From assembly GCA_031276415.1 (NCBI GenBank), contig JAISNF010000396.1, positions 1 through 28,305 of the forward strand: 28,305 nt of DNA, in the 5' to 3' direction. Shown in pieces: positions 3,867-28,305 of the stretch; position 1 is the stretch's first letter; each line of letters begins with the position of its first letter. The translations under genes were made by a program, and so were the position numbers. Source of the DNA: Planctomycetaceae bacterium (GTDB lineage: Bacteria > Planctomycetota > Planctomycetia > Pirellulales > Thermoguttaceae). The notes under the pieces were generated by a model that worked only from the letters and a program-made list of their open reading frames with translations, was not told where the DNA came from and made no database searches.

Positions 3867-3974
3867 TTGTCCGCAAAAGACACCAATAATTTTGTCCGCA
3901 GATTTCGCTAATGGACGCCGATTGTTTTTGTATTATAAAAATAATCAGCGATTATCTGCGAAATCTGCGGACAA
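3867..3974. repeat. TGTCCGCAG...CTGCGGACA palindromic element (family A, copy 1)
   Basis: Starts immediately after the stop codon and has ttgtccgca / tgcggacaa termini. It is near-identical to 7560-7648. Confidence 0.85.
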
Positions 3975-4143
3975 TTTTTTGTTGTTGAAACCAGACGGGA
4001 ATTTTTTTATGAGGTTATTGTTTTTACTATTTAATGTGATATGTTTATACATTCAATTTATCAATGAATTGAAACTTGTAATCGTTTCTGTTTTTTAGAT
4101 TTTCAAAAAAGTATTTAACCAATGTTTAACAAAAAGTTTTAAC

Positions 4144-7100
4144 ATGACACAAAAAAATTATTGTTTGTTTATTGGTTTATTGTTCTGTTTGTTATGTAAC
4201 GATTTTTTGTTTGCTTACACTTCCAACAAGGCGACTGTTGGAGTATTGACGGTTAATATTGAGAAACCGGATGTCATGCGAAAACTCAATGAACCGCTTA
4301 AAATCAAAACGATTTTCAAAAACAATGATAATATACCGCTTAACGTCAAGTTGACGTATTCAACAATTGAAACCATTGAGTTTATTGAAGCGGAAAATGA
4401 CAAGAAAAAATTGATTCAAACCATTGAAGTTCAGGCAAAAAGTGAAACAACTATTAATATTGCCGTAGTGGGAAGAACCGGAACGCTTTCTGTTCATTAT
4501 CCAATTTATCTTATCGCCGAATGGGAAATGGAAGGAGTTCCATCGAAAGCCGTTGTTGTTCAACCGTTTGAATCGACGATTACACCAAATCCGAATTGGC
4601 AAACCAATAATCCGCAACACGGTCAACTTATTGAAAATGTAACCGATTTAATACAAAATACAATTCCTGCTAATAACGGGCTTACATTTGCCGAACAACA
4701 ATCCGTATTGCTTAAAGAGTGTACGGAAACAATGAAAACCGGTAAGAAAATTTCAGAACGTACAAAAACTTTTCCGTTGGATGGCGGATTGCGTGCTGTT
4801 GTAACATTTGGCGAATATGGATTTATTGATGGAAAAATTGCGATTGGTTCACCGGAAAAATTTGTCGTGTACGATGGTATAAAGGTTTCTGTTAAAGAAA
4901 ATCAGTTTACCGTTTTTCCTACAATACTTGCCGCCGAAAAATGGATGCCGACGGACAATCAGACAACCGATGAAACACAGATCGGTAAACACATTGAAAA
5001 ATGTACCGAAAAATACACATGGACACAAAACATCAGCATCGGTAACGAAAAATCGGTGATGAAATATTCGCTTTGGAAAAACGGAGCGGCAATTCAATTT
5101 TCGGTTGATTGTTCCGAACCCGCATGGATTTCATCGGTTGAACTCGGAGCGGCAAATGTTGTAGCGGAAAGAGTTTATTTTGGTCACGGTTATTGTGTTG
5201 TCAAACCGAAAAAACGTTTTGTGATAAATGCCAACGGGACACGACTTTCAACATCGCATGTTGGTTTTGAATATCCATCTGGAATTGCTGTTCTCCAAGC
5301 ATCAACAACACCGCCGGTGAATTTAACCGTTGATCCTGAACAAAAAATCGCAACAATCGTAACTTGTTCCGGTACAATAATGACATTACTTCCCGGTATC
5401 AATGGAATGTTTGATTGTGCTATTCGGTATCGTCCGTTGAATCCCAAGAAAGCGGCTGCGGGTGTTAAAACAAAGGCGGGACGATTTTGTTTCGATATTT
5501 GGGGCGGAAGTTTCAAACGGCATCATGAAATAATTGACCACGCTATTCGATACGGTTTGACCGATTCACTTTTTATTGTTCATAGTTGGCAGCGTTACGG
5601 TTATGATAATCGTTTGCCGGATATTTGGCCTCCTCATTCTGGTACAGGAACACTTGCCGAAATGCAAGATGCATTGAAAAAATGTGATGAAGCCGGAATC
5701 TTGTACGGTTTGCATGATAATTATATTGATTTTTATCCTGATGCCGAAGGTTACAATATTGATCTTTTGTCCTTTGAACGTCATGGTCAACCGCGAAAAG
5801 CATGGCTCAATTCCAGTATTGATGCACGAAGTTATCAATTCCGTCCCGATAAATTCAAACAATTTTTGAAACGAAATATTGGGCTGATGACTCCAGAACT
5901 TCCGCAAACGTGTTATTTTGTCGATGTTTTTTCTTCTGAACCGCCCATTGATTTTTATGACCGTTACGGAAATTTTCATACACGAAACGAAACATTGCAT
6001 TATTGGTGTGAATGTTTCGATATTATCCGTGAACATTTAACTCAAGCATCACGTCCTCGTCAAAATTTGTCTGATGAAAAACGCAACGAATTTTATGCTC
6101 CGACAATTAGTGAATCGGGAAATGATTTTTTGATTGGGCATCTTGACGGGGCTGATTGCGGATTTTCTTATCTCAGTAAATATCCGGGTTCGTTTCACAT
6201 GTACATTCCCTGTGAAGACAAGGAACGCGTTCCTTGGTTTGATGCCGTGAATCACACAACGTTTTCGTTACATGGAGCCGGTTATAGTAACCGTTTTGAA
6301 AATGGACGCGGTCGGTTATTGCACGGAATTGAAAGTGACAATTATATTGCAACTGAAATACTGACCGGACATCCGCCAATGGTTGATCTTGGTTGTGCAA
6401 CACGCGGGGCTGTACGAAAATATTGGTTGCTTCAACCAATATTGCGGGAACTTGCTGATTGTGAAATTGATTCTGTTGAATATGTTGACGGTGATATTCA
6501 TCAGCAGAAAATTGTCTGGAAATCACAGGATGGTCAACGTACAACAATTGTCTATGTTAATCGTAGCGAAAACGATTGGATTTTGCCGGAAGTTGATCAA
6601 TTCAAAAATGTTGGAGCTCGGTGCCAATTTATTTTACCGCCGTATGGTTTTTTAGCAAACGGTTCTGGCGGGACAGCGTCAATTTTTCGGACTGAAGAAG
6701 GTGGTGTTGCGGAATTTTCTTTGAGCAATTCAAAATTGTACGTTAATAGTCGTCAACAGACAATTGAAAAACTCTTACCAATTCGGGTTCGTTTAAAACA
6801 AAATTCGTTTCGTTATTTGGGTGATAATCGGTTTCAATGTGAAATTTCTTGGACGGCTAAGTTACCTGCTCCGCTGGATTATTCAATTTTTGTACATTTA
6901 GTTTCGGCAGACGGAAAAACCAGCAACAATAAAAATGAAGGAATCAAGGCAGTGTATGGTGTTCATAAGCCGAAACCTGTTACGGAATGGGACGATGAAA
7001 TTGTTACGCCAATGATTCCTGCAGGAATTGCAAACGATATTCCAGCGGGAAAATACCGTTTACTTGTTGGAATGTACGATTCACAAGGCAATGGTCATCG

Positions 7101-7506
7101 TGTCCGTTTGATAAGTAACGATAATGATAATTGCCGTTACTGTATTGGTGTTTTGAATATTGTTCGTGGAACGGATGGTAACATTTCCGATTTAACGTTG
7201 GAAGAAGAACAAGTGTTGAAGGGAATCGATGCCGAACTTCAAAACCGGTTGATGCCGCCGAAAAATCCTATTTTGTACGGAAATTTACTTACACGAGGAG
7301 CGTTTCTGTTGGAAGGCAATACATTAACACCGCTTCCCGACGAACCGGCAACAGAAGTTTCTGTACTTATCCCTGATGCGGATAAAATAAAAGTTGTTGC
7401 TATTGATAGCAACGATAAAAAAATTCGTGATGTTCCCTCCGTTTTCAAAGACGGCTTTTTAATTTTTACAACGGAAAAAGGCGAATTTCAGTACGTAATT
7501 GAATAA
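4144..7506 (+). CDS. Large secreted putative glycoside hydrolase (DUF5696 / GH129-GH101-like barrel) with accessory beta-sandwich domains
   Basis: 1120-aa ORF with signal peptide (...NDFLFA|YT). The central motifs HSWQRYGYDNRLPDIWP, YGLHDNYIDFYPDA, YFVDVFS and ISESGNDFLIGHLDG resemble GH129/GH101-type barrels. The C-terminal DYSIFVHLV...IPAGKYRLLVGMYD looks like an Ig-like module. The family call is from motif recall only. Confidence 0.55.
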   Translation: MTQKNYCLFIGLLFCLLCNDFLFAYTSNKATVGVLTVNIEKPDVMRKLNEPLKIKTIFKNNDNIPLNVKLTYSTIETIEFIEAENDKKKLIQTIEVQAKSETTINIAVVGRTGTLSVHYPIYLIAEWEMEGVPSKAVVVQPFESTITPNPNWQTNNPQHGQLIENVTDLIQNTIPANNGLTFAEQQSVLLKECTETMKTGKKISERTKTFPLDGGLRAVVTFGEYGFIDGKIAIGSPEKFVVYDGIKVSVKENQFTVFPTILAAEKWMPTDNQTTDETQIGKHIEKCTEKYTWTQNISIGNEKSVMKYSLWKNGAAIQFSVDCSEPAWISSVELGAANVVAERVYFGHGYCVVKPKKRFVINANGTRLSTSHVGFEYPSGIAVLQASTTPPVNLTVDPEQKIATIVTCSGTIMTLLPGINGMFDCAIRYRPLNPKKAAAGVKTKAGRFCFDIWGGSFKRHHEIIDHAIRYGLTDSLFIVHSWQRYGYDNRLPDIWPPHSGTGTLAEMQDALKKCDEAGILYGLHDNYIDFYPDAEGYNIDLLSFERHGQPRKAWLNSSIDARSYQFRPDKFKQFLKRNIGLMTPELPQTCYFVDVFSSEPPIDFYDRYGNFHTRNETLHYWCECFDIIREHLTQASRPRQNLSDEKRNEFYAPTISESGNDFLIGHLDGADCGFSYLSKYPGSFHMYIPCEDKERVPWFDAVNHTTFSLHGAGYSNRFENGRGRLLHGIESDNYIATEILTGHPPMVDLGCATRGAVRKYWLLQPILRELADCEIDSVEYVDGDIHQQKIVWKSQDGQRTTIVYVNRSENDWILPEVDQFKNVGARCQFILPPYGFLANGSGGTASIFRTEEGGVAEFSLSNSKLYVNSRQQTIEKLLPIRVRLKQNSFRYLGDNRFQCEISWTAKLPAPLDYSIFVHLVSADGKTSNNKNEGIKAVYGVHKPKPVTEWDDEIVTPMIPAGIANDIPAGKYRLLVGMYDSQGNGHRVRLISNDNDNCRYCIGVLNIVRGTDGNISDLTLEEEQVLKGIDAELQNRLMPPKNPILYGNLLTRGAFLLEGNTLTPLPDEPATEVSVLIPDADKIKVVAIDSNDKKIRDVPSVFKDGFLIFTTEKGEFQYVIE

Positions 7507-7515
7507 ATGTTTATA

Positions 7516-7811
7516 GTAACTCTATTTTCTTAGTCCCAGAAAACACTGAAATAAAAAATTTGTCCGCAGAAGATACCAATAATTTTGTCCGCCGATTGTT
7601 TTTGTATTATAAAAATAATCAGCGATTATCTGCGTAATCTGCGGACAAGTTTTTATCAGTGTGTATTTCATTGTTAAGAAAATAGGAAAAGTTAATAGTT
7701 AGTGGGGAATATTGAATAGTTGACGCAAGCGTATTATTTACCAAAATGTTTTTAATCCGCTTGCGTCAACTATTCAATATTCACTGCTCACTATTAACTT
7801 TCCTTAGTTAC
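7516..7811. mobile_element. Composite nested non-autonomous palindromic element (GTAAC...GTTAC shell holding a family A copy and a 120-bp hairpin)
   Basis: The left arm gtaactctattttcttag (7516-7533) pairs with taagaaaatag (7675-7685) plus agttac (7806-7811). A family A copy sits at 7560-7648. The 7686-7805 hairpin contains a perfect 25-bp IR (7707-7731 / 7758-7782). Confidence 0.65.
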
Positions 7812-7841
7812 TTGACATATTCCGGTTCGTTATTATATACT
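7812..7841 (+). promoter_or_regulatory. Putative sigma70 promoter of xylB
   Basis: TTGACA (7812-7817), N18, TATACT (7836-7841), about 100 nt upstream of the xylB ATG. Confidence 0.6.
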
Positions 7842-7937
7842 GTTTATGTTTTAGATGTTGTAACCGGCGTGGTTTTCATCGAACAAATTGAATAACACAA
7901 ATAATAAAATACCGTACATGATTGCGGTTTCCGAACT

Positions 7938-9509
7938 ATGATTTTTCTTGGAATTGATATTGGGACATCCGGTACGAAAACATTGGCAATTGACGCAAGC
8001 GGTAAAATTCTGGCAAGCGATATTCAGGAATATCCTTGTTTTACGCCCAAACCGCTTTGGAGTGAACAAGAACCCGACGATTGGTGGAACGCAACTGTTA
8101 AAACCGTCAATAATGTTATCAAAAAAGCACGGCTAAAACCTGTTGATGTTAAAGCGATTGGGTTGTCCGGTCAAATGCACGGCAGCGTTTTTCTCGACAA
8201 AAACGACAAGGTAATTCGGCGTGCAATTCTTTGGAATGACCAGCGAACGGTTGCGGAATGTCATGAAATCGAAAAGTCTGTCGAATCGTTTCACTTGGGA
8301 ACATTACCGCAAGGTATGTCATTGGAGTTGGAGTCTGTTAATGGGCGTGAATCGTTAATCCGGTTGGTTGCCAATCCTGCGTTGACGGGTTTTACCGCTC
8401 CAAAAATTCTTTGGCTGAGAAACAACGAACCAAAACATTTCGATAAACTCCGCAAAGTATTACTGCCCAAAGATGAAATTCGCAGGCGTTTGACGGGAGA
8501 ATATGCAACAGAAGTAAGCGATGCCAGCGGAATGCTTTTGCTGGATGTTGCACGCCGGAATTGGTCAACAGAATTACTTTCGGCGTTACAATTAGACATT
8601 GATCTTTTGGGACGCGTGTATGAATCCGAAGATGTTACAGGAAATCTAACCCAAAGTGCCGCAAAACAACTCGGTTTAACAACTGATTGTTTAGTTGTTG
8701 GCGGGGCGGGAGACTGTGCTGCGGGGGCTATTGGTAACGGAATTGTTCAGGAAGGAATTTTATCGACATCTATTGGAACTTCCGGTGTTATGTTTGTGTA
8801 CAGTGATGAGGTAAAAATTGATCCGCTTGGTCGGATTCATACGTTTTGCCATGCGGTTCGTGGAAAATGGCATTTAATGGGAGTCAATTTATCTTCCGGC
8901 GGTTCGCTCCAATGGTTTCGCAATGCTCTTTGTTCGGAACTTGTTGCGGAGGCTAAAAAGAAAAAAGCGGATGTGTACGATTTATTGACTGCTGAAGCGG
9001 AAAAAACACCGGCGGGGAGTGAGGGGTTGTATTTTTTGCCGTATTTAAGCGGCGAGCGGACACCTCATGCGGATCCTTTTGCGCGAGGTTGTTTTGTTGG
9101 TTTAACATTGGCTCATGGTCGCGGGCATCTTGTCCGAAGTATCATGGAAGGTGTAACATATTCTATGCGGGATTCGCTTGAAATTTTTCAGGGTTTGAAT
9201 ATTCCGGTCAAACAAATTCGTGCGTCCGGCGGCGGTTCCAAAAGTCCTTTCTGGCGTCAAATCCAAGCCGATGTATTCGGACAACGTGTTGTTACAATTA
9301 ACTCCGAAGAAGGTCCGGCTTTTGGAGTTGCTTTGCTTGCAGCGGTTGGAGCCGGTGCGTTCAAAAATATTCAGGAAGCCTGCAAAGCGACCATCAAAAT
9401 TGTTAAAGAAACAAAACCAAATCCCAAAACCAAAAAAATGTACGATAAAGCGATGCCGGTTTATCAAAATTTGTACCGTTCACTCAAAGACGATTTCAGA
9501 ACATTGTAA
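7938..9509 (+). CDS. xylB: Xylulokinase (FGGY family carbohydrate kinase)
   Basis: FGGY signatures: [95 protein letters not shown] and [13 protein letters not shown]. Confidence 0.93.
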
Positions 9510-16481: not shown

Positions 16482-17199
16482 GGTAACTTCTAATACCCGT
16501 TTTTTTATTTAACCACTTTATTTAACCACAGAGAACACAGAGTAAATTTTTAATTGGAATCAAAATGTTATTTAATATCATACTTCTCACATTTGACAAT
16601 TCGGTTTGCGTTTTTGAACAAAATCAACAAATTTCGACGGGATTAACAGAATTTACAAGATTGGCAAATAGAATATTCCAGGTGATATTTTCTAACAAAA
16701 CCGACTTTTAAAGTGTAATGAGTACATAATTAACTTGTAACCGTTCACGGCTATTTAAAAAAGTTGGTGTTTTTTTATTTGTAACTATTCAGTGGAATTT
16801 ACGAAAACGTATTGTCATTGTTTCAACAAACCTCATTTTTACCTAATTTTTCTTAACAAAACAACCTCAGTAGCAAAAAATCATAAAAAATCCGACCTCA
16901 TTACCTCATTAAAAATATTCATAATAAATGAGGTAATGAGGTTGTTGTGTGTTATCTTCATTTGGCTACTGAGGTTTTTTTGGTGAATCGTTTTGTTAGG
17001 AAAAATTAGGTTGAAATGAGGTTATCGAAGATAAACACGAAACCATTGAGGCAATTCTATGGAATCGTTATAAATTCAGCTGTGAACGGTTACATTAACT
17101 TTTGATCTAAAATAACTTTTTAAAATTAAATTTTCTTCTCTGTGAACTCTGTGGTTAAATATTCTGCGTTAAATAAAAAAGCGGTTATTAGAAGTTACC
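16482..17199. mobile_element. ~720-bp multi-layer nested palindrome of non-autonomous elements
   Basis: Six concentric IR pairs: 16482-16542/17138-17199, 16736-16752/17078-17094, 16777-16799/17053-17075, 16829-16862/16990-17023, 16863-16874/16965-16976 and 16895-16911/16927-16943. Confidence 0.75.
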
Positions 17200-27790: not shown

Positions 27791-28305
27791 TTTCTGAATT
27801 TTTATTTTAAATTTTGGAGACCAAATTACGTTTTGAAAAATAAATTGCCCGAATTTTTGTTCGGGTATTAAAAAAATCGAGTACGTCAACAATACTAAGA
27901 TCGCTTCGGCGAACAGTAATTTTCTACATGACAACCGGATTTTCCGGGTAAAAGATTACTGTGAAATCACAAAGTTACGTTGCTCCCGCTAAGGGAGCGT
28001 CGCGTGTGATTTCATGGGTATAATTTAGTGTTACAATTTGAAACATGTAACACACCACTTATGTCGGTGGGAATGCACCTGTTCTTAGTAACGTGTCGCT
28101 CCTAATCTAGTAGCGATATTTCTGTTGCCGTTTCTCGGCGTTGAGTTTGTTTCCCACTTTGTAACAAAAACAGATTATTTGTTATGTAATCTGTAAAATT
28201 TCAATATCTCTATTGTATAAGGAGAACAAAAATGAAAGTATGAGTCTTTTACGGATTTACATGAGTTCGTTTCTGAGTTTTATTTTAAACTTTGGAGACC
28301 GAATT
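27791..28305 (+). repeat. Pair of 36-37-bp direct repeats about 480 bp apart
   Basis: tttctgaatttttattttaaattttggagaccaaatt (27791-27827) and tttctgagttttattttaaactttggagaccgaatt (28270-28305). Confidence 0.7.
27901..28194. ncRNA. Candidate structured non-coding RNA or hairpin-rich element (family not recognised)
   Basis: At least eight predicted helices in ~295 nt, including a C(UUCG)G tetraloop hairpin at 27901-27912 and nested multibranch stems. No long ORF. Confidence 0.35.

What the first reader, a model, noticed from the sequence alone, without database searches (positions are those of the whole stretch)
7516..7811. Three-element composite: a GTAAC...GTTAC shell with one element in its centre and another splitting its right arm
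Seen: the complement of the left arm (ctaagaaaatagagttac) is present but split into taagaaaatag (7675-7685) and agttac (7806-7811) by a 120-bp hairpin with a perfect 25-bp stem. The centre holds family A copy 2 inside a further IR (acactgaaataaaaa / tttttatcagtgt). The xylB -35 TTGACA begins at the very next base (7812). Inference: the order of insertion can be read (shell first, then two different invaders), and the element end may contribute to the xylB promoter.
Basis: partly seen in the sequence, partly recalled or inferred. Interest (0 to 1): 0.7.

Follow-up and report, generated by a model that had tools for sequence, protein, structure and literature searches.

The report
Mosaic of selfish palindromic repeats
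The 300-bp structure upstream of the xylulokinase gene is a pile-up of small non-coding palindromic repeats that occur hundreds of times in this planctomycete genome; it is an ordinary kind of selfish-DNA mosaic, and the xylB promoter beside it is ancestral, not supplied by the repeats.

Summary

The parse changes.
- The "shell" arm, the "further IR" and the family-A arm form one recurrent long arm: RTAAC-N3-CTATTTTCTTAACCACAGAAAA..AAAAATTGTCCGCAGAT. Of 54 such arms in the genome, 38 lead into a family-A arm.
- Shell and A are still separable modules. A-less shells exist, and 61% of A clusters have no shell.
- The hairpin (family B) has about 219 loci in this genome. It occurs in 12 of 24 congeners and, among 185,579 species genomes, only in four Planctomycetaceae MAGs.
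- The exact 18-nt shell arm is unique. Family-level unsplit shells exist at C41, C537, C157 and C610.

Whether B splits the right arm or merely abuts it cannot be decided (about 45:55). The last three bases of "agttac" (TAC) and the -35 box TTGACA are conserved in six orthologous xylB promoters that lack all these repeats.

The promoter is therefore ancestral. Insertion order is only weakly readable: A core is 97% identical to its nearest copy, B 87%, and the shell arms are degenerate.

No target-site duplication, parent transposase, arm covariation or Rfam match was found.

The parts
4144..7506 (+). Upstream ORF (1120 aa, weak DUF5696 match). Its stop codon lies 10 nt before the repeat cluster.
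   Evidence: The closest orthologue (G014, 75% aa) loses all similarity immediately after the stop codon.
7516..7556 (+). Left long arm: GTAAC-T-CTATTTTCTTAG plus a degenerate CCACAGAAAACAC..AAAAA tract.
   Evidence: Matches the recurrent arm RTAAC-N3-CTATTTTCTTAACCACAGAAAA..AAAAATTGTCCGCAGAT. Here the spacer is 1 nt instead of the usual 3.
7557..7654 (.). Family A core palindrome (TTGTCCGCAGA .. TCTGCGGACAA with CGCAGAT-type sub-repeats). It includes a terminator-like stem at 7629-7645 followed by a T run.
   Evidence: 97% identical over 65 nt to the shell-less copy at window 3916-3980. About 700 hits genome-wide. Terminator-like pattern. Fold z = -7.7.
7655..7685 (-). Right long arm, inner part: ..atcagtgtgtatttcattgTTAAGAAAATAG, the mirror of 7522-7556.
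   Evidence: C8 7675 minus-strand row matches the family arm.
7686..7803 (.). Family B hairpin element: GGAAAAGTTAAT .. ATTAACTTTCC. Its arms are tandem heptamers (TAGTKRR) around a central hairpin GCAAGCG..CGCTTGC. The perfect 25-bp stem is 7707-7731 / 7758-7782.
   Evidence: (about 219 loci, 55 near full length; family core 7690-7799), (12 of 24 congeners; four MAGs only).
7804..7811 (+). TTAGTTAC, of ambiguous origin. It is either the outer end of the right long arm (N3-GTTAC, matching the family spacing once B is removed) or the diverged ancestral promoter flank (TTTGATAC in relatives). Positions 7809-7811 (TAC) are conserved in orthologues.
7812..7841 (+). xylB promoter: -35 TTGACA (7812-7817), 18-nt spacer, -10 TATACT (7836-7841).
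   Evidence: 11 of 12. Conserved in L012, L010, L011, L018, L013 and L015.
7938..9509 (+). xylB, xylulokinase.
   Evidence: TIGR01312 scores 560 bits against a cut-off of 380. FGGY_N and FGGY_C domains.

Best explanation
The interval 7516-7811 is a mosaic cluster of non-coding palindromic repeats. They belong to families that saturate the intergenic DNA of this Planctomycetaceae MAG.

Two units are present.
1. A long-armed family-A element, at least 7516-7685. Its arm is one recurrent module string: RTAAC, a 3-nt spacer, CTATTTTCTTAACC, a CACAGAA tract, an A run, then TTGTCCGCAGAT.
2. A family-B hairpin (7686-7803). Its arms are tandem heptamers of variable number. It lies either inside the last 8 nt of the right arm or directly against a truncated arm.

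These are most likely selfish, non-autonomous MITE/REP-like sequences. I infer that they accumulate next to and inside one another because repeat-on-repeat insertion is tolerated, and that composites then multiply as units. The cluster sits between the stop codon of the upstream gene and an ancestral sigma-70-type xylB promoter. It does not create the promoter.

Shown: copy numbers, module co-occurrence, promoter conservation, and absence of arm covariation. Inferred: mobility, mechanism, and a side effect of the A hairpin plus T run as a transcription terminator for the upstream gene.
For: - Abundance: BLAST of the parts against the genome gives 723 hits for A and 383 for B. B resolves into 219 distinct loci. 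Module motifs hit 598 to 1102 times each in 4.3 Mb.
- B arms are heptamer arrays of variable length around a constant core.
- The arm string recurs. There are 31 exact CTATTTTCTTA sites in the same context. TAAC lies at a 3-nt spacing in 133 of 232 arms. 38 of 54 strict arms lead into an A arm, and full examples are shown.
- The modules are separable: A-less shells at C157 and C610; 464 of 763 A clusters have no shell; the A copy at 3867-3980 has no shell yet is 97% identical to the A core here.
- Composites behave as units: all 10 D-hairpin doublets of one type contain B and none is empty.
- B flanks are a mosaic of other families (A, C, D, H). Only about 24% of copies have mutually inverted flanks, against 4.6% in controls.
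- There is no selection for pairing: complementarity within a B copy is 0.789, and between copies it is also 0.789. There is no Rfam family.
- The promoter is ancestral: TAC-TTGACAT..TATACT aligns in six congeners without any of these repeats. All pairs of congeners lose similarity 8-10 nt upstream of the -35.
- The distribution is clade-restricted: 12 of 24 congeners and 0 of 16 other families of the order; four Planctomycetaceae MAGs among 185,579 species genomes.
Against: - No target-site duplication could be shown. The dinucleotides flanking B here are AA and TT, which extend the inverted repeat rather than form a direct repeat.
- No transposase with matching ends was found. The assembled genome has one IS5-like DDE gene with unrelated ends, no DDE_3, no TnpB, and three IS200-type Y1 genes flanked by other hairpin families. 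The MAG is only 85% complete and fragmented at repeats, so absence is weak evidence.
- No orthologous or population-level empty site at nucleotide resolution was obtained, so mobility is inferred and not shown.
- Arms built from iterated 7-10-nt units would also suit a host DNA-binding protein.
Confidence: 0.78

Rival explanations
1. A GTAAC..GTTAC shell inserted first. Family A then inserted in its centre, and the B hairpin inserted between ..AAAATAG and (TT)AGTTAC, splitting the right arm. The order of events would then be legible at this locus.
For: - With B taken as 7686-7803, as defined from other copies' GGAAA..TTTCC ends, the right arm reads TTAAGAAAATAG-TTA-GTTAC. This is the family's usual 3-nt spacing.
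- Excising 7516-7810 leaves TTTATAC-TTGACA, close to the relatives' GATAC/AATAC-TTGACA.
- Nearest-copy identity falls from A (97%) to B (87%) to the shell.
- B is often found inside other palindromes.
Against: - TAC at 7809-7811 is conserved next to the -35 in six repeat-free orthologues. The right flank TTAGTTAC is 6 of 8 identical to their TTTGATAC, so only 2-3 bases independently support the arm end.
- Three different choices of B's edges all 'work', which weakens the match.
- No other arm in the genome is interrupted at that point.
- At C537 a B copy lies outside an intact GTTAC end.
- Shell+A recurs as a unit at 38 loci, so A need not have entered here.
- The high identity of the A core could be gene conversion with the copy 3.6 kb away.
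Confidence: 0.4
2. The structure is a functional cis-element: a terminator/insulator between the upstream gene and xylB, or a promoter-modulating hairpin or UP-element replacement that selection maintains. The element end would contribute to xylB promoter activity.
For: - The A stem 7629-7645 followed by CAAGTTTTTA matches the terminator pattern. Three such sites were found in the region, against 0.5 expected.
- The family consensus keeps an A run and a T run outside the GC-rich stem on both strands.
- B ends 8 nt from the -35.
Against: - The -35, its TAC flank and the -10 are conserved without any repeat in the orthologues.
- No recurrent GTTAC-TTGACA junction exists: only 2 in the genome.
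- B arms show no compensatory change.
- There is no Rfam match above threshold.
- The same modules sit in hundreds of unrelated intergenic sites in many combinations.
Confidence: 0.12
3. The composite is partly an assembly artefact. A short-read (k119) MAG assembly joined two loci through shared repeat sequence, so the adjacency of the long-armed A element and B, or of the upstream ORF and xylB, would not be real.
For: - The genome is in 663 contigs, and many contigs end in these repeats.
- The upstream ORF is not next to xylB in any of 23 congeners within 1.5 kb.
- Record titles of related MAGs show MEGAHIT k119 contigs.
Against: - The junction sequences 7655-7690 and 7800-7815 are unique in the genome, so there is no shared repeat at the joins.
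- The region lies in the interior of a 28-kb contig.
Confidence: 0.05

Closest known systems
Bacterial interspersed mosaic elements (BIMEs) of E. coli: clusters of REP palindromic units combined with other short motifs
   Same: Extragenic and high in copy number. Several short motif families are combined in recurrent orders between genes. The hairpins are often followed by T runs and can act as terminators or mRNA stabilisers (general knowledge).
   Different: The sequences are unrelated. The arms here are built from iterated 7-10-nt units and stack into much longer layered palindromes. No GTAG/CGTC tag was seen, and no RAYT is associated with families A or B.
REPINs / REP-RAYT systems (Bertels and Rainey 2011; survey in PMC3733652)
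   Same: Inverted doublets form long hairpins. The genome has three IS200-type Y1 transposase genes, each flanked by its own hairpin arrays. PMC3733652 also reports REP dimers lying inside longer palindromes.
   Different: The hairpins flanking the Y1 genes belong to other families (CCGTAGG.., GACCCGCAAGGGGTC, GCCCTTTCAGGGC), not A, B or the shell. The NCBIfam RAYT model is below its cut-off.
Bacterial MITEs, including nested or composite ones (Correia/NEMIS, RUP, ERIC, Nezha)
   Same: Non-coding, 100-300 bp, with terminal inverted repeats. Hundreds of dispersed copies occur next to genes, and some copies lie inside others.
   Different: No target-site duplication and no parent IS were found here. 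Unlike Correia elements, this copy does not donate the promoter hexamer.
BOX elements of Streptococcus pneumoniae
   Same: Modular repeats in which an internal module varies in tandem copy number between copies and the whole folds into a stable hairpin.
   Different: Different sequence and phylum. In BOX elements the variable module is central; in B the variable heptamers lie in the arms.
IS1397 / ISKpn1-type insertion into the loops of palindromic units (from memory, not checked in the library)
   Same: This is a known precedent for mobile DNA that targets the centre of extragenic palindromes. Such targeting would generate nested structures like B inside A loops.
   Different: Those are protein-coding IS3-family elements with defined duplications. 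No such element was found here.

Membership tests
MITE | Short (under about 500 bp) and non-coding | tested here: met
   No ORF of 60 aa or more lies in 7507-7850. The units are about 170 and 118 bp.
MITE | Terminal inverted repeats | tested here: met
MITE | Many dispersed copies | tested here: met
MITE | Target-site duplication flanking the copies | tested here: inconclusive
   TA flanks many B copies, but TA is self-complementary and is part of the heptamer. The copy here has AA and TT, which extend the inverted repeat. No direct repeat is present at 7514-7516 / 7809-7812.
MITE | A cognate autonomous IS with the same ends | tested here: not met
   Inverted motif pairs 700-3500 bp apart enclose ordinary genes only. 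The single DDE_Tnp_1 gene has unrelated ends. There is no DDE_3 or TnpB. The MAG is 85% complete, so absence is weak evidence.
MITE | Presence/absence differences at orthologous sites | tested here: inconclusive
   Six congeners lack all repeats upstream of the xylB promoter, but no sequence upstream of the -35 is alignable in any pair.
REP/REPIN with RAYT | The repeat flanks a single-copy Y1 (RAYT) gene in inverted orientation | tested here: not met
   The three Y1 genes are flanked by other hairpin families.
REP/REPIN with RAYT | A conserved GTAG or CGTC tetranucleotide at one end of a 20-40-bp palindrome (PMC3733652) | tested here: not met
   Neither tag is present in the A, B or shell consensus sequences.
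Promoter-donating repeat (Correia-like) | The element supplies the -35 or -10 hexamer | tested here: not met
   TTGACA and TATACT are conserved in repeat-free orthologues.
Intrinsic terminator | GC-rich stem followed by a T run downstream of a gene | tested here: met
   Pattern match at 7629-7645 plus T run. This is a consensus match only; no transcript data are available.
Structured RNA family | Covariation that maintains the pairs, or a match to an Rfam model | tested here: not met

The most novel reading that the evidence does not exclude
The thousands of layered palindromes in this clade may not be classical MITEs. Their arms are iterated 7-10-nt units, their modules stack in a preferred order (GTAAC shell, CACAGAG layer, CGCAGAT layer, heptamer hairpin), and they have no detectable cognate transposase and no target duplication. 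They could be a new class of palindrome-centre-seeking or hairpin-templated repeat, perhaps mobilised in trans as composite REPIN-like units by the resident Y1 transposases. This locus would then record an off-centre insertion of one such unit into the arm of another.
Probability: 0.12. Interest if true: 0.65.

Novelty: new member of a known kind. Interest (0 to 1): 0.25.

Why it matters
For this locus it matters little. The xylB promoter predates the repeats, and the structure is one of hundreds of similar mosaics.

At genome scale the repeat load explains why this MAG and its congeners assemble into hundreds of contigs. The repeats also give a clade-specific marker: the B core occurs in only four species genomes of 185,579.

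These Planctomycetaceae would be a good system for asking how short palindromic repeats come to nest and multiply as composites. That question is better addressed genome-wide with long reads than from this single interval.

Tried and rejected
- Same-species contigs: the best JGI metagenome relatives of xylB are 84% identical or less at protein level, and their promoters are not alignable.
- Ancestral state: the orthologue of the upstream ORF in G014 loses similarity right after its stop codon. All congener pairs lose similarity 8-10 nt upstream of the -35. The left boundary of any insertion therefore cannot be fixed.
- TA target-site duplication model for the whole block or for B: rejected as unproven. 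The related long-form arm continues outward past the equivalent of RTAAC, and B here is flanked by AA and TT.
- Parent IS search by inverted motif pairs and Pfam transposase families: nothing matched.
- RAYT link for A or B: rejected.
- Structured-RNA reading: rejected. The Rfam hits are generic long-hairpin miRNA models far below threshold.
- Systematic shell-end/-35 junction: rejected.
- Paralogous 'empty sites' for B inside A: found only at family level (80-88% identity). They place B in the AT-rich loop of A but are too diverged to show a duplication.

Full report
**Setting.** Record titles of the only other genomes that carry the hairpin core read 'MAG: Planctomycetaceae bacterium'.

The finding lies in the 431-bp spacer between a 1120-aa ORF (4144-7506, weak DUF5696 match) and xylB. 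The xylB gene (7938-9509) scores 560 bits on TIGR01312 against a cut-off of 380.

**Observation.**
- The repeat finder recovers the 11-nt perfect inverted repeat 7522-7532 / 7675-7685 and the inner repeat 7543-7555 / 7650-7662.
- The hairpin folds with exactly 25 uninterrupted pairs, 7707-7731 with 7758-7782 (z = -14.9).
- TTGACA-18-TATACT at 7812-7841 scores 11 of 12.

The same DNA can also be read as one 65-nt-armed inverted repeat, 7672-7736 / 7753-7817. The hairpin's edges are therefore a matter of choice.

**The hairpin is a genome-wide family (B).**
- BLAST finds 219 distinct loci, 55 of them near full length, with the shared core at 7690-7799.
- Aligned copies show arms made of tandem heptamers (TAGTTAA / TAGTGAA / TAGTTAG) whose number varies. 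They surround a constant central hairpin, GCAAGCGGAATTA..TAATCCGCTTGC. One subfamily ends in GGAAA..TTTCC, as this copy does.
- B is present in 12 of 24 congeners and in none of 16 genomes from other families of the order.
- A 23-nt core pattern occurs in only four Planctomycetaceae MAGs among 185,579 species genomes.

**The 'shell' is not unique in kind, and it is not independent of family A.**
- The exact 18-nt arm occurs nowhere else at up to 2 mismatches.
- Its core CTATTTTCTTA occurs 31 times, almost always in one context: RTAAC, three bases, CTATTTTCTTAACCACAGAAAA, an A-rich tract, then TTGTCCGCAGAT.
- Both arms of the window's structure appear in that list. The 'further IR' is simply the degenerate CACAGAAAACAC..AAAAA part of this arm.
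- Of 232 arms with TAAC upstream, 133 have the 3-nt spacing. Of 54 strict arms, 38 run into an A arm within 100 nt (examples).
- A longer relative, GGTAACTTCTAATAAC-N3-TTTTTTTATTAACCACAGAG(GACACAGAG)n, is commoner still.

The modules are nonetheless separable.
- A-less shells exist at C157 (near 11927, minus strand) and C610:1093.
- Unsplit shells enclosing A exist at C41:2691-2810 and C537:2128-2314.
- 464 of 763 A clusters have no shell within 100 nt.
- The A copy at window 3867-3980 has no shell, yet it is 97% identical over 65 nt to the A core here.

At the level of the exact sequence it is not.

**Do composites arise locus by locus?** Probably not always.
- All ten doublets of another hairpin family (GCCCTGAAAGGGCARYATA .. 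TATRYTGCCCTTTCAGGGC) contain a B element, and none is empty. That composite multiplied as a unit.
- Shell+A at 38 or more loci suggests the same.
- B's neighbours are a mosaic of families A, C (AATGAGGTAATGAGGT..TTAGGAAAATTAGGTAGAAATGAGGTT, 143 hits), D and the CACAGAG layer.
- Only about a quarter of B copies have mutually inverted flanks, against 4.6% of shuffled pairings.
- Where B lies inside A, it occupies A's AT-rich loop.

**Is the right arm split by B?** The arguments on each side roughly balance.

For a split arm:
- If B is bounded by its subfamily ends (7686-7803), the arm reads TTAAGAAAATAG-TTA-GTTAC, which is the family spacing.
- Excising 7516-7810 leaves TTTATAC-TTGACA, close to the relatives' sequence.

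Against a split arm:
- In six congeners whose xylB promoters align to the window (L012, L010, L011, L018, L013, L015), TAC-TTGACAT is conserved with no repeat nearby. The window's TTAGTTAC matches their TTTGATAC at 6 of 8 positions.
- Only 'G' and one 'T' then independently support an arm end.
- GTTAC occurs at 0.0014 per position.
- No other arm in the genome is interrupted there.
- At C537 a B copy lies just outside an intact GTTAC end.

I put the split-arm reading at about 45%.

**Order of events.** Nearest-copy identity is 97% for the A core and 87% for B, and the shell arms match other copies only in 14-26-nt pieces. The window's B also has the cleaner stem. This fits an old outer arm with younger contents. 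Gene conversion with the A copy 3.6 kb away, or arrival of shell+A as a unit, would give the same picture. The order is suggested, not read.

**Promoter.** The -35, its TAC flank, the spacer's first bases and the -10 are shared with repeat-free orthologues. Every pair of congeners loses similarity 8-10 nt upstream of the -35, so that boundary is general and is not created by this insertion. Only two GTTAC-TTGACA junctions exist in the genome. The element end does not supply the promoter. It replaces whatever lay in the UP-element position, with unknown effect.

**Nature of the repeats.**
- No Rfam family matches.
- B arms show no covariation: complementarity is 0.789 within copies and 0.789 between copies. 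This argues against a selected hairpin.
- No target-site duplication is demonstrable.
- The assembled genome holds three IS200-type Y1 transposase genes, each flanked by its own REP-like hairpin arrays. None of those arrays is A, B or the shell.
- There is one IS5-like DDE gene with unrelated ends, and no DDE_3 or TnpB.
- Inverted motif pairs 0.7-3.5 kb apart enclose ordinary genes only.

Membership in MITEs or in REP/RAYT systems therefore cannot be claimed on the defining features. The behaviour resembles both, and it resembles E. coli BIMEs. PMC3733652 documents REP families in Planctomycetes and REP dimers lying inside longer palindromes.

**Verdict.** It is one instance of a genome-wide, clade-restricted mosaic of selfish palindromic repeats. 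The three-element nested reading is partly right: B is an independent family, and shell and A are separable. The split arm is undecided, the insertion order is only suggestive, and the promoter idea is not supported. An earlier follow-up of this scan on 16482-17199 of the same window reached a similar 'nested MITEs' conclusion.

Noticed in passing
G000 contigs C577:4725-5066(-), C9:5993-6337(-), C111:49-393(+) (loci L033-L035): Three IS200/IS605-type Y1 transposase genes are each flanked by arrays of a different REP-like hairpin: CCGTAGGTGTAGCGAAGCGCAACCTACGG with GCCCCGCAGGGGC; GACCCGCAAGGGGTC; and GCCCTTTCAGGGC. The arrangement is RAYT-like, although the NCBIfam RAYT model is below its cut-off.
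   Followed up: partly
G000, ten loci, e.g. C231:412, C25:4336, C526:4700: Every inverted doublet of the GCCCTGAAAGGGC hairpin of this type encloses a family-B element (10 of 10), and no empty doublet was found. The composite seems to multiply as a unit, perhaps as a REPIN with cargo.
   Followed up: partly
window 7720-7730 and 7990-8000: An exact 11-nt match (TTGACGCAAGC) links the B stem to the xylB coding sequence 270 nt downstream. This is probably chance.
   Followed up: no
G000 C537:2128-2450: A complete long-armed A element with an unsplit right end (..GAGACCGTTAC) is followed 12 nt later by a B element. These are the same two neighbours as in the window, but with B outside the arm.
   Followed up: partly
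G000 genome-wide; window 17002: Family C (AATGAGGTAATGAGGT .. GCTACTGAGGTTGTTTTGTTAGGAAAATTAGGTAGAAATGAGGTT) has 143 core hits. It has a constant left part and a variable right neighbour, often B. Its TTGTTAAGAAAATTAGG stretch resembles the shell arm.
   Followed up: partly
xylB loci of congeners (L010-L032): Sequence upstream of the xylB -35 box is non-homologous in every pair of species, and the 1120-aa ORF is not the upstream neighbour in any of 23 congeners. The spacer is a hot spot for turnover.
   Followed up: partly
window 3867-3980 versus 7557-7654: Two family-A cores 3.6 kb apart, after consecutive genes, are 92-97% identical apart from a 19-bp indel. One lies inside shell arms and the other has none. 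This points to recent copying or gene conversion.
   Followed up: partly
G000 C139:~330-480, C80, C583; window 27800-27846: A conserved TTGACA-17-TAAAAT promoter-like site followed by ..TTGGAGACCAAATTACGTTTTGAAAAATAAATTGCCCGAATTTTTGTTCGGG recurs downstream of A arms at several loci. Its nature is unknown; it may be a small RNA or an operon leader.
   Followed up: no
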